Assembly (NCBI GenBank): GCA_964468315.1
Contig: CAYXTA010000002.1
Coordinates: forward strand, 319-64,318
Direction of reading: 5' to 3'
Length of the DNA: 64,000 bases
DNA from: an uncultured Candidatus Saccharibacteria bacterium
Lineage (GTDB): Bacteria; Patescibacteriota; Minisyncoccia; Phycocordibacterales; UBA9973
Shown piece after piece: positions 2,029 to 35,785 of the stretch. Below the pieces are notes generated by a model. It had not been told where the DNA came from. It saw only the letters and a program-made list of their open reading frames with translations, and searched no databases. Positions within the stretch are counted from its first letter, which is position 1. Each line of letters opens with the position of its first letter. The position numbers were made by a program, and so were the translations under genes.

Positions 2029-2102
2029 TGGACCCTACAGGACTCGAACCTGCCACCTCCTCATTGCAAATGAGGCGCTCTAACCAGATGAGCTAAGGGC
2101 CC
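2029..2102 (-). tRNA. tRNA-Ala (anticodon TGC).
   Basis: The reverse complement folds as a cloverleaf. The acceptor stem is gggccct/agggtcc with a G3:U70 pair (the Ala identity element). The anticodon stem is cctca/tgagg with loop tttgcaa, giving anticodon TGC. The T-loop is ttcgagt. CCA is not encoded. Confidence 0.85.
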
Positions 2103-18510: not shown

Positions 18511-18583
18511 GCCGCTTTAGCTCAGTTGGTAGAGCAACGCTTTTGTAAAGCGAAGGTCCTCGGTTCAAGTCCGAGAAGCGGCT
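18511..18583 (+). tRNA. tRNA-Thr (anticodon TGT).
   Basis: gccgctttagctcagttggtagagc... The acceptor stem is gccgctt/aagcggc, the D-loop agttggtag, the anticodon stem cgct/agcg with loop tttgtaa (anticodon TGT), the T-arm ctcgg-ttcaagt-ccgag, and discriminator T. Confidence 0.8.
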
Positions 18584-23165: not shown

Positions 23166-24467
23166 TTGTGTATAATCAATAAATATATGGAAAAATGGCG
23201 TAAAAGTATACTTTTTATTGGTGATGGACTTTCTCTTTGTCTGGCTGGATACTTGATGTTAATAAGTCGTTTTGGTTTACCGAAGGCAACAGAACAAATC
23301 CCCCTGCACTTAAAACCATTCATAATTTGGGGTATTTTAGTTTTTCTAATTTTCTATATTTTTAATTTGTACGAAGTAAGTGCGCTAAAACCAACACTCA
23401 ATAACATAAGACAATTTATTTTTGCAATCATTGTAAGTGCAATAACAGGAATAATATTATTTTATATTTTCCCTTTTTCTGTTACACCAAAAACAAATTT
23501 AATCATAACTCAACTATACTTTACTTTTTTCATTTTAATTTGGAGAAGATCTTTCTATCGTCTTTTTTCAAAAAAATTCAAAAACAATATTGCGTTTATA
23601 GGAGAAACACCTGAATCAAAAATACTTATTAAAAACATAACAGATAATCCTCCTATTGGATATGAATACAAAGGTACTTTTGAAAATTTTGAAATGCTGC
23701 AAAAAAGTAATTTTAAAATAAATACGGTTGTATATGCTTCTAGTAATAGTAATATTGATTTATTAGAACTAAGTAGATCAAATTATATTCACTTAGATAT
23801 AAACAAGGCTTTTCAGATTATTCTTTCTAAAATACCAGTTGAACTTATGAATGATGTAATTGCTCTTGATATGCTTGAAGATAGAAAAAATATTCTATCT
23901 AAAACAATAGAAAGGTTTTTAGATATATTTTTTTCTGTATTAGTGTTAATAATAACTCTCCCAATAACAATAGTTACTTCATTTTTAATATACACAGAAG
24001 ATGGTAAAAATATTTTTTACAAACAAAAACGTATCGGGTTAAAAAATAAAGAATTCTCAATAATAAAATTTCGCTCAATGAAAATTGATGCCGAAAAAAA
24101 TGGAGCTGTATGGGCGAGCTCTGAAGATATACGCATAACTCGTATAGGAAAAATAATACGCAAACTTCACATCGATGAAATACCTCAAATGATCAATATT
24201 CTTCGTGGTGATATAACACTCGTAGGGCCAAGACCAGAAAGACCAGAATTCGTAAATATGCTTGAAAAAGAAATTCCATATTATTTTTTAAGACACACAA
24301 TAAAACCCGGATTCACTGGTTGGGCTCAAATAAAATATCGATACGCTCGCACCATAGAAGATTCAAAAGAAAAATTTGAATATGACTTACACTATATAAA
24401 AAACAGAAATTTTTTTCTTGATATGGGAATTATTGTGAGAACAATACAAATAATATTTACTCATTAA
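23166..24467 (+). CDS. Polyprenyl-phosphate hexose-1-phosphate transferase (WbaP/bacterial sugar transferase family), the initiating enzyme.
   Basis: 433 aa. The N-terminus is multi-TM. The C-terminal 'bacterial sugar transferase' domain reads 'KRIGLKNKEFSIIKFRSM...ITLVGPRPERPEF'. The real start may be the ATG at 23187. Confidence 0.85.
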   Translation: MCIINKYMEKWRKSILFIGDGLSLCLAGYLMLISRFGLPKATEQIPLHLKPFIIWGILVFLIFYIFNLYEVSALKPTLNNIRQFIFAIIVSAITGIILFYIFPFSVTPKTNLIITQLYFTFFILIWRRSFYRLFSKKFKNNIAFIGETPESKILIKNITDNPPIGYEYKGTFENFEMLQKSNFKINTVVYASSNSNIDLLELSRSNYIHLDINKAFQIILSKIPVELMNDVIALDMLEDRKNILSKTIERFLDIFFSVLVLIITLPITIVTSFLIYTEDGKNIFYKQKRIGLKNKEFSIIKFRSMKIDAEKNGAVWASSEDIRITRIGKIIRKLHIDEIPQMINILRGDITLVGPRPERPEFVNMLEKEIPYYFLRHTIKPGFTGWAQIKYRYARTIEDSKEKFEYDLHYIKNRNFFLDMGIIVRTIQIIFTH

Positions 24468-24503
24468 ACTGGAAAAAAACCTATAAAATGCTAGTATAGA
24501 ATT

Positions 24504-25331
24504 ATGAGCCACACTCATACTACAGTTATAAAACCTAAGAAATTATTTAGTTTTTCTGACCTAAAAGAAATATGGGAATACAGAGAATTGCTCTATTTTT
24601 TCACATGGAGAGATTTAAAAGTACGTTATAAACAAACAGTTATCGGTGTACTTTGGGCAATATTGCAACCATTTATCACAATGGTAGTATTTACTGTTTT
24701 TTTTGGTGGTTTATTAAAAATTTCTTCTGACGGAGTACCCTACCCTATTTTTGTTTATACCGGTCTTTTGTTTTGGCAATTTTTTTCTTCTGCTCTTACA
24801 GATACGAGTAATGTGCTAATAACAAATCAATCAATAATCACAAAAGTTTATTTCCCAAGACTTTTACTTCCCCTTTCTTCTGTAATGACAAAATTTATTG
24901 ATTTTGCATTTGCTTCGATAATACTAATCGGTATGATGTTCTATTATGGATACACTCCAAACCTTTTAGGATTATTAATCCTCCCCCTTCTTTTAATAAT
25001 CACATTTATGGCTTCAGTCGGTCTTGGCCTTTTTCTCGCTTCAGTAAATGTAAAATACAGAGATGTACGTTATGCTTTACCATTTTTTATACAAATACTT
25101 ATGTTTGTCACACCAGTTATTTATCCAGCAGGAATTGCAGGAAAATATTCTTGGATACTTGCACTCAACCCCATGATGGGTGTCATTCAAAGTGCTCGTG
25201 CTGCATTACTTGGAACAACGGTTCTAAACTGGACATTAGTTAGTATTTCACTTTTTGCTACTTTTATCTTTATGTTATTCGGAATTTACACATTCAAAAA
25301 AACAGAAAGATATTTTGCTGATTTAATTTAA
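24504..25331 (+). CDS. wzm: ABC-2 type polysaccharide export permease (Wzm/TagG-like).
   Basis: 275 aa with six predicted TM helices and an ABC-2 family profile. It sits immediately upstream of the cognate ATPase. Confidence 0.8.
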   Translation: MSHTHTTVIKPKKLFSFSDLKEIWEYRELLYFFTWRDLKVRYKQTVIGVLWAILQPFITMVVFTVFFGGLLKISSDGVPYPIFVYTGLLFWQFFSSALTDTSNVLITNQSIITKVYFPRLLLPLSSVMTKFIDFAFASIILIGMMFYYGYTPNLLGLLILPLLLIITFMASVGLGLFLASVNVKYRDVRYALPFFIQILMFVTPVIYPAGIAGKYSWILALNPMMGVIQSARAALLGTTVLNWTLVSISLFATFIFMLFGIYTFKKTERYFADLI

Positions 25332-25335
25332 ATAT

Positions 25336-26574
25336 ATGGAAAAACCAATAATACAAGTAAAAAATATAGGTAAGAAATACAACATTAATCATCAAAAAAT
25401 TGGTTATGTTACACTACGAGATAAAATAACAAATGTATTTGTGAATCCTTTTTCTTTTTTAATAAATAAAATTAAACAAGTCGCTGGTATAGGAACAAAA
25501 GAAGAATTTTGGGCATTAAAAGATATAAATTTTGAAATAAAAAAAGGTGAAGTTGTAGGTATTGTTGGCCAAAATGGTGCAGGAAAATCTACATTATTAA
25601 AAATACTTTCACAAATCACTCCACCGACGACCGGAGAGATCAAAATCCACGGTACTGTTGGGAGTTTACTTGAAGTTGGAACAGGTTTTCATCCAGAACT
25701 TACAGGAAGAGAAAATATATTTTTAAATGGTGCTATTTTGGGTATAAAGAAAAAAGATATAATAAAGAAATTTGAAAAAATCGTAGAATTTGCAGGTATT
25801 GAGAAATTTCTAGACACTCCAGTAAAATACTACTCTAGTGGAATGTATGTTCGTCTCGCCTTCTCTGTCGCAGCTCATATGGAAACAGATATATTGATTA
25901 TTGATGAAGTACTCGCTGTTGGTGATGCTGAATTTCAAAAAAAATGCCTTGGTAAAATGGAAGATATTACAAAAAACCAAGGACGCACTATTTTATTTGT
26001 TAGTCATAATATGGAGGCAGTTAAAAAAATATGTGAAAAAGTTATTTGGTTAGAAAAAGGATCTGTAAAAGATATTGATAGTACAGAAAAAATAATAAAA
26101 GAATATTTAAATCAAAACAATGATGGTGTGTCTGAAAAATGGATAAATAAAAATAATGTTAAAGAAAATATTTTCTTTAAACCAGAAGTTTTTGAAATAA
26201 TAAGAGAAGATAAAGATATATATATAAAAATAGAAGCAGAAATAAAAGAAATAAATAAAGAGTTAACAATAGGATATGCTTTGTACACAGAAAATATGGA
26301 ACTTTTATACTGGTCATATCAAACAGATGACAATGATATTGAATTAAAAGTTGGTAAAAATATTTTTCAATCAAAACTACCATTAGAAATTTTAAACAAT
26401 GGAAGATATATAATAGAATTAATCGGTGGTATACATGGAAAAGAATGGTTTTTTGAACCAAATAAAGGAAACCCAACATTAATAGTCGAAATAAATAAAG
26501 AATTTAATAATAAACCATTCTGGATTAACCAAAGACCTGGAATATTAGCACCAAAAATATCATGGAAAATATAG
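25336..26574 (+). CDS. wzt: ABC transporter ATP-binding protein (Wzt/TagH-like) with a C-terminal extension of about 170 aa.
   Basis: 412 aa with Walker A 'GQNGAGKST', signature 'YSSGM', and Walker B 'ILIIDE'. The C-terminal extension resembles a Wzt substrate-binding domain. Confidence 0.85.
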   Translation: MEKPIIQVKNIGKKYNINHQKIGYVTLRDKITNVFVNPFSFLINKIKQVAGIGTKEEFWALKDINFEIKKGEVVGIVGQNGAGKSTLLKILSQITPPTTGEIKIHGTVGSLLEVGTGFHPELTGRENIFLNGAILGIKKKDIIKKFEKIVEFAGIEKFLDTPVKYYSSGMYVRLAFSVAAHMETDILIIDEVLAVGDAEFQKKCLGKMEDITKNQGRTILFVSHNMEAVKKICEKVIWLEKGSVKDIDSTEKIIKEYLNQNNDGVSEKWINKNNVKENIFFKPEVFEIIREDKDIYIKIEAEIKEINKELTIGYALYTENMELLYWSYQTDDNDIELKVGKNIFQSKLPLEILNNGRYIIELIGGIHGKEWFFEPNKGNPTLIVEINKEFNNKPFWINQRPGILAPKISWKI

Positions 26575-28031
26575 AAATATATAAAAAGAATATCACTTCC
26601 CAATGGGGAGAGGATGGAATCACAGAAGAAATATTTAAAAGAATCAGTACAAAAGAAAGATTTTGTATAGAATTTGGGGCTTGGGATGGAAAACATTTAA
26701 GTAATGTATGGAACTTATGGCATGAAAATAATTGGTCTGCCCTTTTAATAGAAGGCGATGAGAAAAAATGTAAAGATTTAGAAATATCAGTTTCTAAATT
26801 TCCAAAAGTAAAACCATATTGTGCATTTGTAAAAAAAGAAGGTGAAAATTCTTTAGACAAAATATTAGCGAAAACATTTCCAAATAAAGAAATAGATTTA
26901 CTCTCTATTGATATAGACGGAAATGATTATTACATATTAGAAACTCTCATAGCTAAACCAAGAGTAATCATAATTGAATATAATCCTACAATACCTGTGA
27001 GTTTAGATTTAGTGCAAGGAGAAGATCAATACTTTGGTTCTTCTGCTTTATCTATCAATACTCTTGCTCATCAAAAAGGTTACAAATTAGTATGTATTAC
27101 TGAAACAAATATGTTTTTTGTAAGAGAAGACGAATTTTCAAAATTAGGAATAGATGAGCCTGTACTTGAAAAAATTTTTATTTCAAAACACCTAACATAT
27201 ATAATAACTGGGTATGACGGAACTCCTGTATTAACACAAATACCTACATATAATAATATTCTTAAACTTACAAAACGTGAGATAAATTTCAAAAATGTTA
27301 AACTACCAACAATAAATTTTTCAATATATAAATCAACAAAATCATATATAAAAAATATTACAATTATTTTAGAAAAGATATTGTTAAAAATAAGTCTTTT
27401 TTTTAGAAAAAATAAAAAAGAAGATGAGCAAACAAAAAGAGTTATTCCTTGGTTTAAAATAGATGGAGATAAAACATTAAGAATAAATTATGAGCTTAAT
27501 GGTTCTTCTGTTGTTGTTGATGTTGGTGGATACGAGGGACAGTGGTCAAGTGATATTTTTGCAAAATACCAATGTACTATACATATATTTGAACCAGTAA
27601 AAAGTTTTTTTGAGAAAATAAAAGAAAGATTTACTAAAAACAATAAAATAAATATATATAATTTAGGACTTTCAAATAAAAACAGAGAGATGTCTATCTC
27701 TTTATTAGAAGATAGCTCTTCTTTGTTTAAAGAAGACGCTAAAAATGAACACATACTAGTAACTGATGCTTCAATCTTTTTCAAAGAAAATAATATTGAT
27801 CATATAGATCTAATAAAAATTAATATAGAAGGCGGTGAATATGATTTACTGGAAAATCTAATTGGAACTGGATTTATTTCAAAAATAAAAAATATTCAAG
27901 TACAATTTCACGATTTTGTACCTAACGCAAAAGAAAGAATGTTACAAATTCAAAAAGAATTAGAAGAAACTCACCACATCACTTACCAATATGAATTTGT
28001 TTGGGAAAATTGGGAAATAAATGAAAAATAA
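26562..28031 (+). CDS. Tandem FkbM-family SAM-dependent methyltransferase with two FkbM-like modules.
   Basis: 489 aa. Module 1 has 'CIEFGAWDGKH...IDLLSIDIDGNDYYILE'. Module 2 has 'VVVDVGGYEGQW...IDLIKINIEGGEYDLLE'. Confidence 0.65.
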   Translation: MENIEIYKKNITSQWGEDGITEEIFKRISTKERFCIEFGAWDGKHLSNVWNLWHENNWSALLIEGDEKKCKDLEISVSKFPKVKPYCAFVKKEGENSLDKILAKTFPNKEIDLLSIDIDGNDYYILETLIAKPRVIIIEYNPTIPVSLDLVQGEDQYFGSSALSINTLAHQKGYKLVCITETNMFFVREDEFSKLGIDEPVLEKIFISKHLTYIITGYDGTPVLTQIPTYNNILKLTKREINFKNVKLPTINFSIYKSTKSYIKNITIILEKILLKISLFFRKNKKEDEQTKRVIPWFKIDGDKTLRINYELNGSSVVVDVGGYEGQWSSDIFAKYQCTIHIFEPVKSFFEKIKERFTKNNKINIYNLGLSNKNREMSISLLEDSSSLFKEDAKNEHILVTDASIFFKENNIDHIDLIKINIEGGEYDLLENLIGTGFISKIKNIQVQFHDFVPNAKERMLQIQKELEETHHITYQYEFVWENWEINEK

Positions 28032-28833
28032 TTTAAATATAGAAATTTCAAATATTTCAGTTGTTATACCTAATTGGAATGGAGCAAAAACGCTTGAGAA
28101 TGTTATTAAAAGTTGCATAAATCAAACATTAAAACCTCTTGAGATACTTATTTGTGATGATGGATCAACAGATAATAGTAAAGAAGTTGTAGATCAAATA
28201 AATAATGATTTAGTTAAATGGATTCCACTTCCACACTCTAGAACACCAGCTATTCCTAGAAATAATGGAATAAAAATAAGCAAAGGAGAATGGATTGCTT
28301 TCTGTGATAGTGATGATGAATGGTTGCCGACAAAATTAGAAAAACAAATAAAAAAAGCTTATGAAACAAAATGCAAAGCTATCTGTACTAATGCAATAAG
28401 AAAAATAAATGGTATAAATATAATTGGAAATATGATCAATTATAAAAAAGAAAAAATATCTTTTAATGATTTATTAAATAGCAACAGTGTTGTGTGTAGC
28501 TCATCGATGATTCATAAATCAGTTCTTGAAAAAGTTGGCGGATTTTCAGAAGCAATAGAATACGGCAGTTATGCCGATTTTATATGCTGGCTTAGAATAA
28601 CCACTCAGACTAATTTTGCTTTTATTAATGAACCCTTGGTTATATATGACGACCACCCACAAACAAGTATACGGGCAAATGAAACATCAGCGGAAAGAAT
28701 AAAAATCCTAGCCTTAGATAATTTTATAATATGGTCAAAAAAAATGAATCTCCCCTATTTCAGATATCTTATAAAAAAGAATCTTATAAAAAATAAATTA
28801 TTAAATTTAATCAAAAAAATAATTCATGCTTAA
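28021..28833 (+). CDS. Family-2 glycosyltransferase.
   Basis: 270 aa. 'ISVVIPNWNGAKTL', 'ILICDDGSTDNS' and 'CDSDDEW' are GT-A motifs. Confidence 0.8.
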   Translation: MKNNLNIEISNISVVIPNWNGAKTLENVIKSCINQTLKPLEILICDDGSTDNSKEVVDQINNDLVKWIPLPHSRTPAIPRNNGIKISKGEWIAFCDSDDEWLPTKLEKQIKKAYETKCKAICTNAIRKINGINIIGNMINYKKEKISFNDLLNSNSVVCSSSMIHKSVLEKVGGFSEAIEYGSYADFICWLRITTQTNFAFINEPLVIYDDHPQTSIRANETSAERIKILALDNFIIWSKKMNLPYFRYLIKKNLIKNKLLNLIKKIIHA

Positions 28834-29539
28834 AACAAAATTAAAAAATATAATAAAAAAAATATTCTACAAAAAAAACAAAAATGTCTTAATCAGTAAC
28901 ACTGGAAAAGAATTTGAAGTTAATAATTGGGTATTATCGGAATTTATTATTGATAAAATCATTCCAAGTGTTGGATTTCACCCATTTCCATTAAATGAAC
29001 TAATGCTTATGTCTGGGGCTATTTGTTTTATAAAACCAACTCATTTATTTGAATGGGGTACGCACTTTGGTAAATCTGCAAGGATATTTCATGAAACAGC
29101 TCGTTATTTTAATATCGAAACAGAAATACATTCTATCGATTTACCTGAGAATATAGAACACAATGAGCACCCACACAAAGAAAGAGGTAAATTTGTTAAA
29201 AAATTTAAAAATGTATCTCTACACTTAGGAGATGGATTAGACACTTCCCTTTCTATACTAAAAGGAAAAGAGGGTAAAAAAATAATACCACTTTTTTTTC
29301 TTGATGGTGATCATTCATATGAATCAGTAAAAAGAGAGCTCAATGGGATTTTTGAAAAATACCCTCAGTCAAACATTATAATACACGATACATTTTTTCA
29401 AACAAAAGAAAGCAATTATAATATAGATCCATACGAGGCTGTAAAAGAATTTTTAAAAGATAAAAATGATGTTTTTGTATTAATAGACACAAAGACAGGT
29501 TTACCTGGAATGACATTGCTTTTAAATAAAAAAATATGA
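28826..29539 (+). CDS. Class I SAM-dependent methyltransferase (Methyltransf_24/CmcI-like).
   Basis: 237 aa. 'FEWGTHFGKSARIF' and 'FFLDGDHSYESV' match the Methyltransf_24 pattern. Confidence 0.55.
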   Translation: MLKTKLKNIIKKIFYKKNKNVLISNTGKEFEVNNWVLSEFIIDKIIPSVGFHPFPLNELMLMSGAICFIKPTHLFEWGTHFGKSARIFHETARYFNIETEIHSIDLPENIEHNEHPHKERGKFVKKFKNVSLHLGDGLDTSLSILKGKEGKKIIPLFFLDGDHSYESVKRELNGIFEKYPQSNIIIHDTFFQTKESNYNIDPYEAVKEFLKDKNDVFVLIDTKTGLPGMTLLLNKKI

Positions 29540-31119
29540 AAATAGGAATACTTTATATATGCACTGGTAACTACACTATCTTTTGGAAAGAATTCTATTT
29601 GAGTATGGAGAAAAATTTCATCAACGATTCCGAAAAACATTATTTTGTATTTACTGATGGAGATAAAATAGATTTTGAAAATGAAAATCCAAGAATTCAT
29701 AAAATATATCAGCGTGACTTGGGCTGGCCTGATAATACATTAAAAAGATTCCACGTATTTCTAAAACATGAAAGAAAATTGGCAAATATGGATTATTTGT
29801 TCTTTTTTAATGCTAATTTGCTCGTATTAGAAAAAATTACTCAGGAAGAATTTTTACCTATTAACAATGAGAATCTTGTTGCAGTATTACATCCAGGATT
29901 TTATGACAAAAATAGAAATAAATTCACTTATGAAAATAATAAAAAATCTACTGCATATATATCACCGGAAAAAGGAATACAATATTTTGCAGGAGGATTG
30001 AATGGTGGAAAAACAGCAGAATTCATTAATGCAATGAAAACAATGAAAGAGAATGTATACATTGATACGGAAAACAAGATTATAGCAAAATGGCATGATG
30101 AATCACATTGGAATAAATACTTAATAGACCAAAATGATATAAAAATACTAGGGCCAGAATACCTTTATCCTGAAGGATGGAATTTGCCTTTTAAACAAAA
30201 AATATTAATACGAGATAAAAATAATTATGGTGGACATAATACATTACGAAAAAAACAGGAAACAAAAACTGAAGTATTGATTAAAAAAATAAGGAACTTA
30301 ATGACTAAGATTAGAAAGAATCTTCCGAATTTTGGTAAACTCTTATTTTATAAATACAAAAAAGCATTAATTTTAGATAATGGAGTAGAAATTTTTAATA
30401 CTAATTTACTCATTACAACAATTGCTTTTAATAATCTCGATATACTAAAAATACAGTACCCGCAATTAAAGAAAAATTTAAAAGATGAATTTATATACAT
30501 GATTGCTGATAATTCATCAATATTCTCTTTGTCAGAAGAAATAAAAAACTATTGCATAAATGAAAAAATACCTTATATAAAACTACCGCCAAACCCATAT
30601 AAAAATCCAAGTAAATCACACGGAATTGCTCTCAATTGGGTTTATAAAAATATAATAAAAAAATACGAACCACATTTTTTTGGTTTCTTAGATCACGATA
30701 TATTCCCTTACAAAGAAACATCTGTAATTCCAGATATACAAAATAATGTATTTGGTTTAATACAAGAAAGAGAAAATAAATGGTATCTATGGGCAGGATT
30801 TTGTTTTTATAATTTTAAAAATTTAAAAAATATTACTATGAATTTCATGCCATCAAAAGGCCTCGATACTGGTGGATCAAACTATTACATCTTATATAAA
30901 AATATTAATAAAAATAATTTAAAAAAATTACCTCAAATATATATCGATACTAAAATAGAGAAAAAAGTGTTAGAAATAAATAATTCAAATACAGCTACTA
31001 CTATAGAATGCATAGGTGACTGGATTCACTTAATGAGAATCTCGAATTGGAATGACCAAAAAAATAATAAAACTGATTCTATAGAAAAAATAATTTCTTT
31101 AGCAAAAGAATTGTCATAA
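29536..31119 (+). CDS. GT6-family alpha-1,3-Gal/GalNAc-transferase (bacterial NXN type) fused to a roughly 280-aa C-terminal domain, possibly a second GT-A module.
   Basis: 527 aa. The N-terminal half aligns with ABO/alpha3GalT enzymes: 'HYFVFTDG', 'LHPGFY', 'FTYE', 'YFAGGLNGG', 'WHDESHWNKYL' and 'GPEYLYP'. The DXD position is NAN ('FFFNANLL'), as in metal-independent bacterial GT6. The C-terminal half contains 'IADNSS' and 'GFLDHDIFP' (a DxD-like motif). Confidence 0.75.
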   Translation: MKIGILYICTGNYTIFWKEFYLSMEKNFINDSEKHYFVFTDGDKIDFENENPRIHKIYQRDLGWPDNTLKRFHVFLKHERKLANMDYLFFFNANLLVLEKITQEEFLPINNENLVAVLHPGFYDKNRNKFTYENNKKSTAYISPEKGIQYFAGGLNGGKTAEFINAMKTMKENVYIDTENKIIAKWHDESHWNKYLIDQNDIKILGPEYLYPEGWNLPFKQKILIRDKNNYGGHNTLRKKQETKTEVLIKKIRNLMTKIRKNLPNFGKLLFYKYKKALILDNGVEIFNTNLLITTIAFNNLDILKIQYPQLKKNLKDEFIYMIADNSSIFSLSEEIKNYCINEKIPYIKLPPNPYKNPSKSHGIALNWVYKNIIKKYEPHFFGFLDHDIFPYKETSVIPDIQNNVFGLIQERENKWYLWAGFCFYNFKNLKNITMNFMPSKGLDTGGSNYYILYKNINKNNLKKLPQIYIDTKIEKKVLEINNSNTATTIECIGDWIHLMRISNWNDQKNNKTDSIEKIISLAKELS

Positions 31120-31124
31120 AAAGA

Positions 31125-31955
31125 TTACCAGTATTTTTGATACAGTTTAAACATTTTATTAAAAGAAATACGAAAAGGAAGTTTAACAAAAAAACCATAA
31201 ACAATAATACGAGCTAAGGCACGAAGATATGAAATGAGATAATTTGGATATTTACCTTTAAAATGTTTTATTACTTTAAAAATTTTCTTATATTGTTCTA
31301 TCTTATTTTGTGCACTAATACTTGCATCATGTAATTTAAATCTAACAGAATATGATGATAGGTTTGAAAATTTACCACAAAGTCCAAGACGAAGCCAAAG
31401 ATCATAGTCTTCAACGTGACGTGTATTTACAGACTCATCATAACCACCTATTTTTAATACAACATCTTTTCTAAAAAGAACACTTGAATGTATAAAACAA
31501 TTTTTTCCAAGAATTGTTTTTCTTATTTGAATATCTTTTTCTGGTAAGAAGTATCTGAATAATTCATTATTATTTTCATCAACAATAATCACTCCCGTAC
31601 CAACCAAAACATACTCTTTATTTTTTTCTAAAAACAAAACTTGCTCACTTAATTTATTTTGATCAATCCAAACATCATCGTCATCAATACGAGCTATATA
31701 TTCCCCTTTTGCTTCTCGGAGTCCCTTATTGAGTGTTTTTTGAATACCAAGATTTACTTCATTTTTAATATATTTAATTCTGGTGTCTTGCTTTACAAAA
31801 GTATCAACAATAAAAGCTGTATTGTCCTGTGAGCCATCATCGAGCACCAAAAGCTCCCAATTACTGTATTTCTGGTCTAAAACGCTCTGTATAGCCATTT
31901 CTATACGTTTAGAGCCGTTATATGTTGGTAATATAATTGATACTAATTTATCCAT
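31125..31955 (-). CDS. Family-2 glycosyltransferase.
   Basis: 276 aa. 'VSIILPTYNGSKRI', 'LLVLDDGSQDNT' and 'RIDDDDVW' are GT-A motifs. Confidence 0.8.
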   Translation of the reverse strand: MDKLVSIILPTYNGSKRIEMAIQSVLDQKYSNWELLVLDDGSQDNTAFIVDTFVKQDTRIKYIKNEVNLGIQKTLNKGLREAKGEYIARIDDDDVWIDQNKLSEQVLFLEKNKEYVLVGTGVIIVDENNNELFRYFLPEKDIQIRKTILGKNCFIHSSVLFRKDVVLKIGGYDESVNTRHVEDYDLWLRLGLCGKFSNLSSYSVRFKLHDASISAQNKIEQYKKIFKVIKHFKGKYPNYLISYLRALARIIVYGFFVKLPFRISFNKMFKLYQKYW

Positions 31956-31959
31956 ATTT

Positions 31960-32811
31960 TTATAGTTTTATCCATTCGTTAGGTATTAAATCACTGGTAT
32001 CTATTGATGTATCTGGAAACCAATTTTTAGGTGCGACAACAATTTTGTCTTTATTATCAGAAAGCCATACAGCCCACCAAGAAAATGAACTGTTTGAAAT
32101 AACAAAATTTTTACACTGACTCATTAAGAATAAATGCCCTGTATCTTTTATTCCTAAATATTCATCTCCTACAAACATCACAGGTAAATCAAATTTTAAA
32201 TTATTTTCACACCACTTTATATCATCAGAAAAAACATATATTTTATCTATTTTTTTATTTTTATAAATATAATCAATACCATTTTTATAATAATCATTAT
32301 TCACAACTTCATGATGTTTATTACCAACAAAATCTCCTCTACGTACATGCAAACAGAGTGATTCGTTATTTGAAATTTCTTTAGCAACTTCTTGTATATT
32401 TTGTGGTAAATTATTTTTTAATGTAAAATCTTTACGTATAATATCTTCAAAACCAGAAAAATATTTTGGTGACTGAAAATATCCATCTAAATAAACATCT
32501 TTTCCTAAATCAAAAAATCTTAAATCAAAGTTAAAAGAATTCTCTTTTCCTTTATTTTTCATAAATCTAGAAAAAAAATAATTAAATAAACTGTTTCGAT
32601 ATATAATTGGTATATCTAATTTCCTTGCTATATCTCCTTGTATATTAAAAACATCCAAACTATAAATTCTTTTTGTTACTCCTAATAAATTTAAATCAAA
32701 AAAAGAAGTATCAAATTTTAACTCTGTATTATTTTTTATCGATAAAACTCGTCCCAATGCATATTGAAACATTTGATTACCCATTCCACCTTGTAGTCTG
32801 ACAATAATCAT
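31960..32811 (-). CDS. GT11-family alpha-1,2-fucosyltransferase.
   Basis: 283 aa. The N-terminus 'LQGGMGNQMFQYA' and 'LHVRRGDFV' (the HxRRxD motif) are the GT11 (FutC/WbsJ-type) signatures. Confidence 0.85.
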   Translation of the reverse strand: MIIVRLQGGMGNQMFQYALGRVLSIKNNTELKFDTSFFDLNLLGVTKRIYSLDVFNIQGDIARKLDIPIIYRNSLFNYFFSRFMKNKGKENSFNFDLRFFDLGKDVYLDGYFQSPKYFSGFEDIIRKDFTLKNNLPQNIQEVAKEISNNESLCLHVRRGDFVGNKHHEVVNNDYYKNGIDYIYKNKKIDKIYVFSDDIKWCENNLKFDLPVMFVGDEYLGIKDTGHLFLMSQCKNFVISNSSFSWWAVWLSDNKDKIVVAPKNWFPDTSIDTSDLIPNEWIKL

Positions 32812-32815
32812 AGTT

Positions 32816-33706
32816 TTATTTTTTTAACTCTAAAATACCTTCTTCTAAAGTAATTTTCGGCGACCAATCAAGAAGTTCTTTTACTTTTACAATACTTGCG
32901 CTTGTAGCATATGGCTCAACTCTTTTTTCAATATATACAACTTCCCCACCGATGAGTTCTGCGATTTTATTTATAGAATACGTTTCATTAGTTCCTATAT
33001 TTATTACTTCACCATTACCGACTTTTTCTATTTTCATAGCCATAATATTTGCTTGAGCAACATCAGCAACATTTATAAAACTACGAGTTTGATTACCATC
33101 ACCAGTTATTGTTAGAGGTTTACCTTGTTTATACAAATCTACAAATTTCGCAACAACACAAGGATATGCACCACCGATACTTTGTCTTAAACCGTAAACA
33201 TTAAAATACCGAAGCGATACAGTTTCGACACCATATAAATCTGCCCACAACTTACAATACACTTCACCAATATATTTATGTGCACCATACGGAGAAAGTG
33301 GATTTGAATTCATTGTTTCTATTAAAGGCAAAGTATCTTGATCACCATATACAGCACTTGATGCTGCAAAAATAACTCTCTTAACTCCATTCAAACGTGA
33401 AGCTTCTAAAACATTGAGTAAACCTGTAACATTTACATCGTGTGTTTCTATAGGATTCTCTATTGAATACTGCACTTGTGGCATTGCAGCTTCGTGAAAA
33501 ACATATTTCACATCTTTAAATATTTCTACTAGTTTTCCTTTATCCCTGATATCTACATTATGGAAAATTGCTCGGGAATTAACATTTTCAATTTTCCCAG
33601 CTGATAAATCATCAACAATATGCACTTCATAATCAAGCTCAACTAAAGCATCTACTATATGAGATCCTATGAAACCAGCTCCGCCTGTGACAATAATTTT
33701 TTCCAT
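32816..33706 (-). CDS. NAD-dependent epimerase/dehydratase (UDP-hexose/UDP-HexNAc 4-epimerase-like).
   Basis: 296 aa. Rossmann 'VTGGAGFIGSH', catalytic 'YGAHKYIGE' (YxxxK), short-chain SDR-e architecture. Confidence 0.8.
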   Translation of the reverse strand: MEKIIVTGGAGFIGSHIVDALVELDYEVHIVDDLSAGKIENVNSRAIFHNVDIRDKGKLVEIFKDVKYVFHEAAMPQVQYSIENPIETHDVNVTGLLNVLEASRLNGVKRVIFAASSAVYGDQDTLPLIETMNSNPLSPYGAHKYIGEVYCKLWADLYGVETVSLRYFNVYGLRQSIGGAYPCVVAKFVDLYKQGKPLTITGDGNQTRSFINVADVAQANIMAMKIEKVGNGEVINIGTNETYSINKIAELIGGEVVYIEKRVEPYATSASIVKVKELLDWSPKITLEEGILELKK

Positions 33707-33712
33707 ATATAA

Positions 33713-35725
33713 TTATAATTTAAAACCTGGTATATCTTTCTCTGCTTGTTCAAGTGCTTCTTTGTAAAGTTTTTGATCTCCTTTATTTTTAGCAAAATTA
33801 ATAAAAAATCTATGTGATACTGAAATACTTGGATCTAATGTTATAGCATCTCTATACGCTTTTTCAGCACTACCCAAATCTGTAGTCCATGAATACACTT
33901 GGGCTATTCTCCAATAAACTTCTGGATTACTAGGTGAAATAGTGAGGGTGTGATCTAAAATTTCAAGGATATGTTTACGAGTATTTTCATCATTTGGAGT
34001 ATCAGACAAATATGCTCTGGTGTTGTACAAATCAACAATAGAGATATTCAATCTGTAATCAGTAGGGTTTTCATTTCTGACAATTTCAAGATATTTCAAA
34101 AAATTATCTAAATCTTTTAAGATATACGGTAAGACTTGTTTATTATTTTTTATTGCAACAGCATTTTTAAAAAGTGAACCAAATGTATCGTGTGCTAATC
34201 CACCAATATCCCAAACATCTCCAACAACAGACCCGCCTGCCAGTTCATTGAACGGCTTATTAATTTGTTTACTAAAAACCCTACCGATTGTATCTATTTT
34301 TTTATAAGGTCGATACAAAAAGAATACTAAAGAAATACTACAAAAAATAAGAAGTACACCAACGATAAGGTTTTTAGCATATTGATCAGTTATTTTAAAC
34401 TTGTTATTTTCTATAGAATTATCTTGTAATCCAAAAATAATTCCAACAAAAGAAAATAGCACCATAAAAGATAAAACTGAATCAAAGAAAAATAGATTTT
34501 GAAATACATATCCTACAACTAATCCAAAAAACAATGAGGCTTGCAAGGTGGTCAATATTTCTTTTTCTTTTAATTTATACAAACAAAATAGTATTGAGAG
34601 AATAAAAATAAGATAAAAGATAATTGCTGGATACCCTGCAGAAGCACCGATGTCATAATAAATATTGTGAAATCGATCTGCATATCCTTCATAGTTATAT
34701 TCAGCAAGTAACATCTTTGGGTTAAAATGTGCCTGAAATGCAATTGCCTGATTTTCAGGACCATAGCCAAACCATGGATGTTCATTCATAGACTTCTCTG
34801 CAGTATCCCAAAAAATAAAACGTGTACCAGACGCTACTTGCGTAAATTTCTGATGGAGCTCCGTGTTCGGTGTCACAAGCTGTTTCCAGCCAAACACAAA
34901 AACAATGAGACTAAGAACAATCCCTGTTATACCTAAAAAATGAAATGTCTTTTTCTTTGATAATGCTAAACATCCTAAACCTGTCGCACCTGTGCCAATA
35001 ATAATACCAAGTAATGCTCCACGGGCATTACCGAGCAGACTTCCCCCGGTAAATAAACCGTAAATATTTATAAAAATTGGAGAAAAAATAATCGTAGCTA
35101 AAGCTATACTAATTAATATTTTTGTTTTTTTAGATATATCCTTGAAAGTTAAAAGAAATATACCAAACACAAAAACAAACATCAAGTATGCAGCTGCTAC
35201 TGATGAGTTTCCTGTAAGTCCACCTCCTCCATCAGTAGTTAAAAATTTATATGGTAAATGAAATCCTCCTGAACCAAACCATAAAGATAATGCAAGAATA
35301 AAACCACCAGCAATAAACCATTGTAAAAAATTTTGTATATACTCTTTACCATAGCGATACGTGAGTGAAGCAACAATAAATGTAAATAATAAAGAATGGT
35401 AGAGTGTGAGCAATCCTGTACCACGGGAAAGAGTAGACCAAAATGAAAGATTTGAATCAACAGCCAATATTCCAGCAATTGTCATCCAAATTAAAAAACC
35501 AATAGCTGGTAAAAACCAAAGTAGTGTTTTCTTTGGTAAACGATATGATGGGTCAACTGTTATGGTGTAAATTAAAATACAGACAAGAATATCTACAACA
35601 CCATAAAAAAAGAATGGTTTTGAAGAAAGATGCGGGTATATTCTACTACCGACATAAATAAGCGGTAAAATAAATACAAAAAAATAAGTACCATATTTCA
35701 AAATATTTTTACGAAATAAATCCAT
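33713..35725 (-). CDS. O-antigen ligase/Wzy_C-family polytopic membrane protein with a C-terminal TPR-repeat domain.
   Basis: About 670 aa from the ATG at 35725 (the ORF track extends to a GTG at 35764, which would overlap the upstream terminator). At least 10 TM helices. Wzy_C-like periplasmic loop 'FIFWDTAEKSMNEHPWFGYGP'. C-terminal TPR-like repeats ('AEKAYRDAITLDPS'). Confidence 0.7.
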   Translation of the reverse strand: MDLFRKNILKYGTYFFVFILPLIYVGSRIYPHLSSKPFFFYGVVDILVCILIYTITVDPSYRLPKKTLLWFLPAIGFLIWMTIAGILAVDSNLSFWSTLSRGTGLLTLYHSLLFTFIVASLTYRYGKEYIQNFLQWFIAGGFILALSLWFGSGGFHLPYKFLTTDGGGGLTGNSSVAAAYLMFVFVFGIFLLTFKDISKKTKILISIALATIIFSPIFINIYGLFTGGSLLGNARGALLGIIIGTGATGLGCLALSKKKTFHFLGITGIVLSLIVFVFGWKQLVTPNTELHQKFTQVASGTRFIFWDTAEKSMNEHPWFGYGPENQAIAFQAHFNPKMLLAEYNYEGYADRFHNIYYDIGASAGYPAIIFYLIFILSILFCLYKLKEKEILTTLQASLFFGLVVGYVFQNLFFFDSVLSFMVLFSFVGIIFGLQDNSIENNKFKITDQYAKNLIVGVLLIFCSISLVFFLYRPYKKIDTIGRVFSKQINKPFNELAGGSVVGDVWDIGGLAHDTFGSLFKNAVAIKNNKQVLPYILKDLDNFLKYLEIVRNENPTDYRLNISIVDLYNTRAYLSDTPNDENTRKHILEILDHTLTISPSNPEVYWRIAQVYSWTTDLGSAEKAYRDAITLDPSISVSHRFFINFAKNKGDQKLYKEALEQAEKDIPGFKL

Positions 35726-35754
35726 AAAGGCATTATACCGTAAAAATACAAAAC

Positions 35755-35785
35755 AAAAAAGCACTCATTTCTGAGTGCTTTTTTG
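35755..35785. terminator. Terminator downstream of the surface-protein gene (minus strand).
   Basis: gcactca-tttc-tgagtgc flanked by an A6 and a T6 run. Confidence 0.55.

What the first reader, a model, noticed from the sequence alone, without database searches (positions are those of the whole stretch)
29536..31119. GT6 enzyme of the metal-independent bacterial NXN type fused to an extra ~280-aa C-terminal domain
The GT6 module carries NAN (FFFNANLL) where animal enzymes have DVD, as reported for Bacteroides GT6 enzymes. The polypeptide continues for ~280 aa with GT-A-like features (IADNSS, GFLDHDIFP). A two-module GT6 would be an unusual architecture, possibly adding two consecutive sugars.
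Basis: partly seen in the sequence, partly recalled or inferred. Interest (0 to 1): 0.6.

Follow-up and report, generated by a model that had tools for sequence, protein, structure and literature searches.

The report
Two-enzyme sugar transferase with GT6 head
One gene in an uncultured ultra-small (Patescibacteria) bacterium joins a blood-group-A-type sugar-adding enzyme to a second, uncharacterised sugar-adding enzyme through a membrane-binding helix; the fusion is real, conserved and rare, but it is of a familiar kind.

Summary
ORF 29536-31119 (+) encodes 527 aa without interruption, and the identical protein occurs on four independent contigs. Residues 1-240 are a complete bacterial GT6 of the metal-independent NXN type (N92-A-N94). 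Every BoGT6a catalytic, donor-contact and acceptor-contact residue checked is conserved. Residues 241-284 form a basic amphipathic helix continuous with the membrane-association tail of stand-alone bacterial GT6. Residues 285-527 ("X") fold confidently (pLDDT 93) as a GT-A glycosyltransferase with an invariant D-N-S, a D-H-D (DxD), D444 and H498. X has no Pfam, NCBIfam or PDB sequence match. It is remotely GT2-like and unrelated to GT6. X defines a family of about 1,860 cluster representatives, mostly stand-alone ~280-aa proteins in glycan loci, sometimes fused behind GT2, GT8 or GT6. GT6-X fusions occur in at least eight sequences. One is a DAD-type version in an orthologous cassette (Wzm/Wzt, GT2, CmcI-like methyltransferase, GT6-X, GT11). 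Two syntenic relatives lack X, and no adjacent split version was found. The most likely function is a membrane-associated bifunctional transferase in an ABC-transporter-dependent, blood-group-A/B-like surface glycan pathway. What X transfers is unknown. This is a new domain combination of a known kind, of moderate interest.

The parts
29536..31119 (+). Whole fusion ORF, 527 aa plus stop. The ATG overlaps the stop of the upstream methyltransferase gene (29536 vs 29539).
29536..30255 (+). GT6 catalytic module, residues 1-240; full-length equivalent of the BoGT6a crystal construct.
29809..29817 (+). N92-A93-N94, the NXN motif that replaces DXD (BoGT6a N95-A-N97).
   Evidence: PMC3961637
30100..30102 (+). 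E189, equivalent of the catalytic Glu192 of BoGT6a, within W186-H-D-E-S.
   Evidence: PMC3516806
30217..30249 (+). K228 to R238, equivalents of BoGT6a K231 and R243, which bind the UDP diphosphate in the closing C-terminal lid.
   Evidence: PMC3961637
30256..30387 (+). Linker, residues 241-284: basic (11 K/R vs 4 D/E) amphipathic helix (AF2 helix 244-262). It is continuous with the basic-hydrophobic-basic membrane-association tail of stand-alone bacterial GT6.
   Evidence: PMC3516806
30388..31116 (+). X domain, residues 285-527: GT-A fold, remote GT2-like family without a Pfam model.
30508..30516 (+). D325-N326-S327 at the end of strand beta-2 of X; aligns with the DDGS nucleotide-binding motif of GT2. 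N326 is invariant; D325 and S327 are at least 90% conserved.
30691..30699 (+). D386-H387-D388, the DxD motif of X at the end of strand beta-4. Both Asp are invariant.
30865..30867 (+). D444 in LDTGGSN, just before a short helix; candidate xED-type catalytic base.
   Evidence: inference from PMC7185993
31027..31029 (+). H498 in W-I-H, invariant; candidate metal-binding C-His of the GT-A core.
   Evidence: inference from PMC7185993
23166..24467 (+). Context: Bac_transf initiating phosphoglycosyl transferase.
24504..26574 (+). Context: Wzm-like ABC-2 permease (24504-25331) and Wzt-like ATPase (25336-26574, 412 aa with a C-terminal extension).
26562..29539 (+). Context: FkbM-type methyltransferase (26562-28031), GT2 (28021-28833) and CmcI-like methyltransferase (28826-29539). 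All have overlapping stop and start codons with their neighbours.
31125..35764 (-). Context, convergent genes: GT2 (31125-31955), GT11 alpha-1,2-fucosyltransferase-like (31960-32811), NAD-dependent epimerase/dehydratase (32816-33706), Wzy_C/O-antigen-ligase-like membrane protein (33713-35764).

Best explanation
The gene encodes a peripheral-membrane, bifunctional glycosyltransferase with two different GT-A catalytic modules. Module 1 (residues 1-240) is a metal-independent, retaining GT6. By residue-for-residue analogy with BoGT6a, it transfers alpha-1,3-GalNAc (or Gal) from a UDP-sugar onto a Fuc-alpha-1,2-Gal (H-type) acceptor, which the neighbouring GT11 would make. The GT6 membrane-association tail is kept and serves as the interdomain linker. 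Module 2 (X, residues 285-527) is a metal-dependent GT-A enzyme (DHD plus His498), probably inverting (conserved Asp444 in the xED position, GT2-like nucleotide-binding half). It adds another sugar to the same lipid-linked glycan. The finished glycan is built on the cytoplasmic face, probably capped by methylation, and exported by Wzm/Wzt. Shown here: the ORF, the domain boundaries, the folds, the motif conservation, the family distribution and the locus conservation. Inferred: the donor and acceptor of GT6, any activity of X and its stereochemistry, the order of steps and the membrane binding.
For: The GT6 module matches the full length of BoGT6a, and N92/N94, E189, K228, R238, H119, K125, T131, W186 and A152-G-G are all conserved (residue roles from PMC3961637 and PMC3516806). 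A GT11 gene accompanies GT6 in the window and in L001, L003, L004, L006 and L020. X model: pLDDT 92.9, pTM 0.90. All 50 top Foldseek PDB hits are GT-A glycosyltransferases. In 76 diverse homologues, N326, D386, D388 and H498 are invariant and D325, S327, H387 and D444 are at least 90% conserved. hhalign against a GT2 profile gives probability 78.5%, E 1.7e-5, aligning DNS with DDGS and DHD with DSD. Stand-alone X genes lie in glycan loci, next to Bac_transf, GT2 or GT9 genes. X is also fused behind GT2 and GT8 modules. dN/dS against L001 is 0.21 for GT6 and 0.22 for X, so both halves are equally constrained. The linker has net charge +7, a hydrophobic moment up to 0.64 and an AF2 helix at 244-262, and it is continuous with the tails of stand-alone GT6 in L004 and L006. 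Wzm/Wzt, Bac_transf and methyltransferases share the locus. The whole cassette recurs at 38-54% identity in L020.
Against: There is no biochemical evidence for either module. X resembles solved GT-A structures only loosely (TM 0.37-0.46, 8-16% identity), and its C-terminal acceptor half aligns to nothing known. The assignments of D444 as xED and H498 as C-His rest on order and secondary structure, not on a superposition. X is absent from two closely related syntenic loci (L004, L006), so it is dispensable for making some version of the glycan. The full-length AF2 model failed for the GT6 half, so nothing is known about how the two active sites face each other. NCBIfam names the GT6 subfamily 'glucosyltransferase', so the donor sugar is not settled.
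Confidence: 0.75

Rival explanations
1. GT6-X is a co-polymerase. The two modules alternate, with GT11 fucosylating in between, and build a polymer whose repeat is a blood-group-A/B-like trisaccharide. The chain is stopped by methylation and exported by Wzm/Wzt, in the way two-domain polymerases work in other ABC-transporter-dependent pathways.
For: The locus has Wzm/Wzt, two or three methyltransferases and a Wzt with a C-terminal extension. The same set recurs in L020. Two-GT-A-domain polymerases such as KfoC are an established model (PMC7185993; own knowledge for the O-antigen terminator systems). The top Foldseek hit for X is a beta-1,3-galactosyltransferase, though only marginally.
Against: Syntenic loci L004 and L006 keep Wzm/Wzt-type context genes, GT6 and GT11 but lack X. 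That is hard to reconcile with X being half of the polymerase. Two further GT2 genes in the locus could do the backbone work. There is no evidence on donor or linkage.
Confidence: 0.15
2. X is a non-catalytic GT-A-like domain (a pseudo-glycosyltransferase) that only binds the acceptor, or scaffolds the GT6 module at the membrane.
For: Non-catalytic GT-A domains exist in some two-domain enzymes (own knowledge). X is dispensable in L004 and L006.
Against: Most X family members are stand-alone proteins, so they cannot be mere accessories to GT6. The nucleotide-binding DNS, the DxD, D444 and H498 are invariant or nearly so across 76 diverse members. dN/dS equals that of the GT6 half.
Confidence: 0.07
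3. The long ORF is an artefact: two adjacent genes joined by a sequencing or assembly frameshift or a lost stop codon.
For: None was found. L001 shows an interrupted ORF, but the interruption is a masked run of N in the stored record.
Against: The identical 527-aa product is on 4 contigs from 3 runs, and cluster members of 527-529 aa come from further assemblies. Intact fusions of 526, 522, 532, 562 and 570 aa occur in divergent relatives. The linker is itself conserved and under purifying selection (dN/dS 0.36).
Confidence: 0.02
4. X is a diverged tandem duplicate of the GT6 module (a true 'double GT6').
For: GT6 structures appear among the Foldseek hits for X, as do five other GT-A families.
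Against: The profile-profile comparison of X against GT6 gives probability 0.16% and 0.6% against the window's own GT6 half. X carries DHD and a C-His, which bacterial GT6 lacks. X aligns to GT2 instead.
Confidence: 0.01

Closest known systems
BoGT6a of Bacteroides ovatus (CAZy GT6, PDB 4ayj, 4ayl, 4cj8, 4cjb, 4cjc), a metal-independent blood-group-A-type GalNAc transferase
   Same: Residues 1-240 align end to end (E 1.6e-76). They share the NXN motif, the catalytic Glu, the Lys/Arg of the C-terminal lid, the contacts to 2'-fucosyllactose, and a basic-hydrophobic tail after the catalytic domain (PMC3961637, PMC3516806).
   Different: Per PMC3961637, wild-type BoGT6a ends 17 residues after the 246-residue crystal construct. 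Here the tail continues into a second 243-residue catalytic domain. The host is a Patescibacteria MAG, not a Gram-negative gut bacterium.
E. coli O86 O-antigen enzymes WbnI (GT6) and WbnK (GT11), which synthesise blood group B antigen (Yi et al. 2005, cited in PMC3516806)
   Same: GT6 and a GT11 fucosyltransferase are encoded in one surface-glycan locus, implying an H-type intermediate capped by an alpha-1,3 sugar.
   Different: My own recollection, not checked here, is that O86 uses separate single-domain enzymes and a Wzx/Wzy pathway. This locus has an ABC transporter and the GT6 is fused to X.
Tandem two-GT-A-domain enzymes: E. coli K4 chondroitin polymerase KfoC (PDB 2z87) and human LARGE1/2 (GT8 + GT49)
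   Same: One polypeptide carries two different GT-A catalytic modules, each with its own nucleotide-binding and DxD-position motifs (PMC7185993).
   Different: The domain families differ (GT6 + X). One module here is metal-independent. The linker is a membrane-binding amphipathic helix. Polymerase activity has not been shown.
Pfam PF00535 / CAZy GT2 inverting GT-A transferases (e.g. SpsA, TarP)
   Same: The X nucleotide-binding half aligns with a GT2 profile (probability 78.5%): TIAFNN with IPxxN, IADNSS with DDGS, FLDHD with DxD. 4 of 76 X family members give weak PF00535 hits.
   Different: The window's X domain gives no Pfam hit even at E 10. The acceptor half (W-Y-L-W-x-G-F, LDTGGSN, W-x-H) has no detectable GT2 counterpart. 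Structural similarity is only TM about 0.40.

Membership tests
CAZy GT6 / Pfam PF03414 / NCBIfam NF041524 (bacterial clade) - N-terminal module | Profile score above the curated cut-offs over the whole catalytic domain | tested here: met
   PF03414: 120.1 bits against a cut-off of 25. NF041524: 303.4 bits against 250, model positions 1-226 of 226.
CAZy GT6, metal-independent bacterial clade | Asn-X-Asn in place of the metal-binding Asp-X-Asp | tested here: met
   N92-A-N94 aligns with BoGT6a N95-A-N97. 113 of 113 close relatives carry NAN, NSN or NGN.
CAZy GT6 | Catalytic Glu (BoGT6a E192) in W-H-D-E and the diphosphate-binding Lys/Arg of the C-terminal lid (K231, R243) | tested here: met
   E189, K228 and R238 are present.
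CAZy GT6, H-antigen-using subgroup | Residues that contact 2'-fucosyllactose in BoGT6a (H122, K128, T134, W189) | tested here: met
   H119, K125, T131 and W186 are identical (PMC3516806 Table 2). A GT11 gene is in the same locus.
CAZy GT6, metal-independent bacterial clade | Retaining alpha-1,3 transfer that is active without divalent cations | not testable with these tools
   Needs an enzyme assay with and without EDTA.
Bacterial GT6 | C-terminal basic-hydrophobic-basic membrane-association region after the catalytic domain | tested here: met
   Residues 241-284: 11 K/R against 4 D/E, hydrophobic moment up to 0.64, AF2 helix at 244-262. The region is colinear with the tails of the stand-alone GT6 of L004 and L006. 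Membrane binding itself was not tested.
GT-A fold glycosyltransferase superfamily - C-terminal module X | Rossmann-like alpha/beta/alpha fold matching solved GT-A structures | tested here: met
   AF2 pLDDT 92.9. All 50 best Foldseek PDB hits are GT-A glycosyltransferases at probability 1.00, but TM is only 0.37-0.46.
GT-A fold superfamily - X | DxD motif at the end of the fourth core strand | tested here: met
   D386-H-D388 follows strand 381-386. Both Asp are invariant in 76 sequences, and the motif aligns with the DxD of GT2.
GT-A fold superfamily - X | xED Asp at the start of helix alpha-F (the base of inverting enzymes) and a metal-binding C-His | tested here: inconclusive
Pfam PF00535 Glycos_transf_2 (CAZy GT2) - X | Profile score above the gathering threshold | tested here: not met
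   No Pfam family at E up to 10 for the window's X. Only 4 of 76 family members give weak hits, best E 4.1e-6. Remote similarity covers the N-terminal half only.
Tandem bifunctional GT-A enzymes (KfoC / LARGE type) | Two GT-A modules in one chain, each with intact nucleotide-sugar-binding motifs | tested here: met
Tandem bifunctional GT-A enzymes (KfoC / LARGE type) | Alternating action of the two modules to polymerise a disaccharide repeat | not testable with these tools
   Needs in vitro polymerisation assays or the structure of the glycan.
ABC-transporter-dependent surface-glycan pathway | Wzm/Wzt pair and an initiating phosphoglycosyl transferase in the same locus | tested here: met
   PF01061, PF00005 and PF02397 genes lie at 23166-26574. 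The same arrangement is seen on contigs L010 and L020.

The most novel reading that the evidence does not exclude
GT6-X is the polymerase of a surface polymer made of repeating blood-group-A/B-like units in Patescibacteria. X (an inverting beta-transferase) lays down the Gal-type acceptor, GT11 fucosylates it, and the GT6 head adds the alpha-1,3 sugar on which X acts again. The chain is terminated by methylation and exported by Wzm/Wzt. In addition, the orthologous NAN-type and DAD-type cassettes would be a natural pair recording the switch between metal-independent and metal-dependent catalysis within one enzyme lineage.
Probability: 0.12. Interest if true: 0.65.

Novelty: new variant of a known kind. 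Interest (0 to 1): 0.4.

Why it matters
The papers read here describe bacterial GT6 enzymes, the relatives of the human ABO blood-group transferases, only as a catalytic domain with a short membrane-binding tail. This gene shows that the GT6 module, with its tail kept as a linker, can be joined to a second catalytic module. It also shows that whole blood-group-like glycan cassettes (GT11 + GT6 + ABC exporter) exist in ultra-small, host-attached Patescibacteria, whose surface glycans are essentially unstudied. It brings to light a sizeable GT-A family (about 1,860 representatives at 50% identity) that has no Pfam model, is annotated as 'hypothetical', and behaves as a fusion-prone module. The orthologous NAN-type and DAD-type fusions offer a tidy system for studying how metal dependence is gained or lost. 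None of this overturns current understanding, because multi-domain glycosyltransferases are common in bacterial polysaccharide loci.

Tried and rejected
1. A mixed alignment of the full-length protein with GT6-only and X-only homologues (A2) was misaligned by MAFFT: the X homologues landed on the GT6 half at 12-15% identity. It was discarded.
2. The full-length AF2 run from alignment A3 gave pLDDT below 50 for almost all of residues 1-238, because only two sequences covered that half. It gives no information on domain packing. Only the linker helix and X are usable.
4. The X profile against PDB sequences found nothing significant. Single-sequence phmmer against PDB gave only noise, such as an endo-beta-N-acetylglucosaminidase at E 0.055 and Mn-SOD.
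5. hhalign of the X profile against single sequences (the window's GT2 and its GT6 half) was uninformative (probability 0.5-0.6%). It became informative only against a 14-sequence GT2 profile.
6. P0001 was not on record for a contig look-up. It was reached through the genome scan instead, as L001.
7. tblastn of X against plasmids gave one 'hypothetical protein' in Mesorhizobium and no annotated relative.
8. A regex census of the NXN position failed. It was redone from the alignment.
9. Literature searches for a two-domain GT6 or for GT6 in Patescibacteria found nothing relevant. The library covers open-access papers only.
10. Two readings were considered and rejected: that X is a diverged GT6 duplicate, and that the ORF is an assembly artefact (see the rival explanations).
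Full report
OBSERVATION. The window has an uninterrupted ORF at 29536-31119 (+), ATG start, 527 aa. The start codon overlaps the stop of the upstream gene (29536 vs 29539). The three genes upstream also overlap one another, so this is a tightly packed operon.

THE ORF IS REAL. The exact 527-aa product is called on four contigs from three independent sequencing runs. Its 90% cluster holds 527-529-aa members from further assemblies. A scan of one genome per species found full-length matches in three other Patescibacteria MAGs. L001 matches at 82%; its ORF is broken only by a masked run of N. L002 (Candidatus Nomurabacteria) is an intact 526-aa ORF at 59% identity. L003 (Candidatus Paceibacterota) is an intact 522-aa ORF at 57% identity.

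N-TERMINAL MODULE. Residues 1-240 are a complete bacterial GT6. The scores are Pfam PF03414 E 1.1e-34, NCBIfam NF041524 E 9e-91 across the entire model, and E 1.6e-76 to the Bacteroides ovatus BoGT6a crystal chain, aligned 1-240 to 1-245 of 246.

I took residue roles from the two BoGT6a structure papers (PMC3961637, PMC3516806) and mapped them through the alignment. All are conserved:
- NXN motif: N95-A-N97 maps to N92-A-N94.
- Catalytic Glu: E192 maps to E189.
- Diphosphate-binding lid: K231 and R243 map to K228 and R238.
- Contacts to 2'-fucosyllactose: H122, K128, T134 and W189 map to H119, K125, T131 and W186.
- Donor contacts: I8, T10, Y13, N69, R73, G156 and G157 map to identical residues.

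In an alignment of 113 close relatives the NXN position reads NAN (102), NSN (9) or NGN (2). The window protein has the majority residue at every functional position. The A152-G-G string matches BoGT6a, a GalNAc transferase. Preference for GalNAc is therefore an inference by analogy, and NCBIfam's label for the subfamily is 'glucosyltransferase'.

LINKER. PMC3516806 states that bacterial GT6 enzymes have a C-terminal basic-hydrophobic-basic membrane-association region. PMC3961637 notes that 17 such residues were removed from the crystal construct. In the window protein, residues 241-284 have 11 K/R against 4 D/E. Helical hydrophobic moments reach 0.64 for 18-residue windows starting at residues 249 and 252. 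AF2 predicts a helix at 244-262 with pLDDT about 81-87. The stand-alone GT6 proteins of L004 (263 aa) and L006 (267 aa) end in a similar tail (...NEKVNKFKVYYSKIKNKLYKIIKFN). The L002 fusion linker begins almost identically (SIKVNKFKVHFLKMKK...). The membrane tail has therefore been kept and serves as the interdomain linker. Membrane binding itself is inferred.

C-TERMINAL MODULE (X).
- Sequence matches to known families: residues ~285-527 have no Pfam hit even at E 10, no NCBIfam hit and no meaningful PDB sequence match.
- Homologues: X has many. The word-indexed search returned 168, nearly all stand-alone proteins of 240-300 aa without Pfam domains. An exhaustive profile search of 1.84 billion representatives returned 1,860 at E up to 1e-3, 1,242 at 1e-10 and 532 at 1e-30.
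- Fold: an AF2 model from a 76-sequence alignment is confident (pLDDT 92.9, pTM 0.90). All 50 best Foldseek PDB matches are GT-A glycosyltransferases: GT31 B3GalT5, GT43 GlcAT-P, GT6, GT2 TarP/SpsA/RmlT, GT13 GnT-I and GT8 glycogenin. All have probability 1.00, but TM is only 0.37-0.46 and identity 8-16%.
- Conserved residues: N326, G383, D386, D388, P391, G407, W419, F437 and H498 are invariant. D325, S327, S361, H362, H387 and D444-T-G-G are at least 90% conserved.
- Motif placement: in the model, D325-N-S ends strand beta-2 and D386-H-D388 follows strand beta-4, which are the canonical nucleotide-binding and DxD positions.
- Closest family: profile-profile comparison with a 14-sequence GT2 profile gave probability 78.5%, E 1.7e-5. 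It aligned TIAFNN, IADNSS and FLDHD with the GT2 equivalents. Comparison with a 113-sequence GT6 profile gave probability 0.16%. Only 4 of 76 family members reach weak PF00535 hits.

IS X FUNCTIONAL HERE? Between the window and L001, dN/dS is 0.213 for GT6 (171 codons), 0.217 for X (241 codons) and 0.361 for the linker. The two halves are equally constrained. This is one pairwise comparison, so it is supportive rather than decisive.

HOW COMMON IS THE FUSION, AND IS IT SPLIT ELSEWHERE?
- Rarity among GT6: of the 120 best of 2,081 GT6 relatives, all are 239-348 aa. Only one of them, P0124, contains any X sequence, and it is a truncated fragment from the cluster of the L002 fusion. Because cluster representatives can be fragments, the count of fusions is a lower bound.
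- Other GT6-X proteins: among the 150 best X-family representatives are P0245 (532 aa, NAN), P0253 (562 aa, DAD), P0277 (570 aa, DAD) and P0263 (459 aa, truncated, DVD).
- Other X fusions: there are six GT2-X fusions, one GT8-X fusion and two X-methyltransferase-type fusions. X is therefore a fusion-prone module.
- No split version: tblastn of each half against every fetched locus found no X within about 10 kb of stand-alone GT6 genes (L004-L009). It found no GT6 within 6-8 kb of stand-alone X genes (L013-L019).
- Syntenic loci without X: L004 and L006 have the same gene order as the window (GT2, methyltransferase, GT6, convergent GT2, GT11) but lack X entirely.
- Loss rather than gain: their GT6 is closer to the window's (75.6% and 73.8%) than the fused L002 and L003 are (71.8% and 68.6%). 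More distant relatives (L022, L020) carry X. The parsimonious reading is that X was lost in L004 and L006.
- X tree: in a neighbour-joining tree of 253 X domains, the NAN-type fusions are each other's nearest neighbours, but all GT6-X together are not monophyletic. That tree is weak at this depth.
- One old fusion: L020, which carries the DAD-type P0253, shares the whole cassette with the window. Identities are Wzm 45%, Wzt 54%, GT2 50%, CmcI-like methyltransferase 46% (overlapping the fusion's start as in the window), GT6 38%, X 40% and GT11 38%. This favours a single old fusion.

CONTEXT AND MECHANISM. The + strand operon runs in this order:
- Bac_transf phosphoglycosyl transferase (23166-24467)
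- Wzm-like permease (24504-25331)
- Wzt-like ATPase (25336-26574)
- FkbM-type methyltransferase (26562-28031)
- GT2 (28021-28833)
- CmcI-like methyltransferase (28826-29539)
- GT6-X (29536-31119)

The convergent genes are GT2 (31125-31955), GT11 (31960-32811), an epimerase/dehydratase (32816-33706) and a Wzy_C/O-antigen-ligase-like protein (33713-35764).

The layout is that of an ABC-transporter-dependent glycan pathway built on a lipid carrier at the cytoplasmic face. GT11 enzymes make Fuc-alpha-1,2-Gal, the acceptor that BoGT6a uses. GT6 and GT11 travel together in the window and in five fetched loci where it could be checked: L001, L003, L004, L006 and L020. Stand-alone X genes sit in glycan loci: directly after Bac_transf (L014, L015), after a GT2 in a GT9-containing cluster (L016), and before a GT2 (L018).

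My best account is a membrane-tethered bifunctional transferase. The GT6 head caps an H-type unit with an alpha-1,3 sugar, and X adds one further, probably beta-linked, sugar to the same lipid-linked chain.

COMPARISON WITH WHAT IS KNOWN. The GT6 half passes every testable membership criterion of the metal-independent bacterial GT6 clade. The X half passes the fold and DxD criteria for GT-A but fails Pfam-level membership of GT2. The two-GT-A-domain layout is known from KfoC and LARGE (PMC7185993). Public records name these proteins 'hypothetical protein' (KKP60259.1) or simply 'family 6 glucosyltransferase' (MFA7192129.1). Full-text searches found no description of a two-domain GT6 or of GT6 in Patescibacteria. 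Those searches cover open-access literature only.

VERDICT. This is a new domain combination within a well-known kind (multi-domain bacterial glycosyltransferases). It incidentally exposes a sizeable unannotated GT-A family, and an orthologous pair of metal-independent and DXD-type GT6 cassettes. Interest is moderate, at 0.4.

Noticed in passing
L020:7001-8689 (P0253); also P0277 and P0263: These GT6-X fusions have a GT6 half with DAD or DVD (the classic metal-binding DXD) instead of NAN. L020 shares the whole cassette with the window at 38-54% identity. PMC3961637 knew of only two bacterial DXD-type GT6 enzymes. This looks like a natural NXN/DXD pair within one enzyme lineage.
   Followed up: partly
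L004:10001-10792 and L006:9995-10798: These loci are syntenic with the window, but GT6 stops after the basic tail (263 and 267 aa). The convergent GT2 follows at once, so X is cleanly absent, most likely lost. This implies variation in glycan structure between close relatives.
   Followed up: yes
L022:596-2050: Upstream of the P0245 fusion, the GT2 and the CmcI-like methyltransferase, which are separate genes in the window (28021-28833 and 28826-29539), are themselves fused into one 484-aa protein. This is another fusion in the same cassette.
   Followed up: partly
P0180, P0192, P0199, P0213, P0218, P0219, P0236 (GT6 relatives of 333-348 aa): This is a different C-terminal addition to bacterial GT6: about 95 residues with a conserved IYIYGAGxKG...IISDGQ...IIIA pattern (Rossmann-like). 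It is unrelated to X and has no Pfam annotation beyond GT6.
   Followed up: no
window 25336-26574: The Wzt-like ATPase is 412 aa, with the ABC domain near the N-terminus. Only residues 3-263 align with the L020 homologue, so the C-terminal ~150 aa is variable. This is reminiscent of the glycan-cap-binding modules of Wzt in O-antigen export (own knowledge; not tested).
   Followed up: no
window 26562-28031; L003:6480-8507: This 489-aa protein has an FkbM methyltransferase domain only in its C-terminal third (residues 320-463), and its N-terminal ~300 aa are unassigned. In L003 the homologous C-terminal part ends a 675-aa protein whose upstream part was not scanned against Pfam. In L004 only a 264-aa ORF of similar size sits in that position, also unscanned.
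   Followed up: no
P0241, P0243, P0248, P0266, P0267, P0322 (GT2-X); P0329 (GT8-X); P0297 and P0048 (X followed by an extra C-terminal region): The X family is repeatedly fused to other glycan-building modules. It is C-terminal to GT2 or GT8. In P0297 it is N-terminal to a Methyltransf_24 domain, and in P0048 to a C-terminal region with no Pfam hit.
   Followed up: partly
L020:5517-6301: The homologue of the window's GT2 (28021-28833) is split into two called genes (154 and 101 aa) in L020 and L021. This is a possible frameshift or pseudogene in an otherwise intact cassette.
   Followed up: no
window 33713-35764: A 683-aa multi-pass protein with a Wzy_C/O-antigen-ligase domain sits beside an ABC-transporter-type glycan locus in a Patescibacteria genome. 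What it ligates the glycan to is unclear.
   Followed up: no
window 2029-2102 (-) and 18511-18583 (+): These two tRNA genes are the only Rfam matches in the window. Window GC is 32%, dipping to 25-28% across the glycan locus at 26-32 kb.
   Followed up: no
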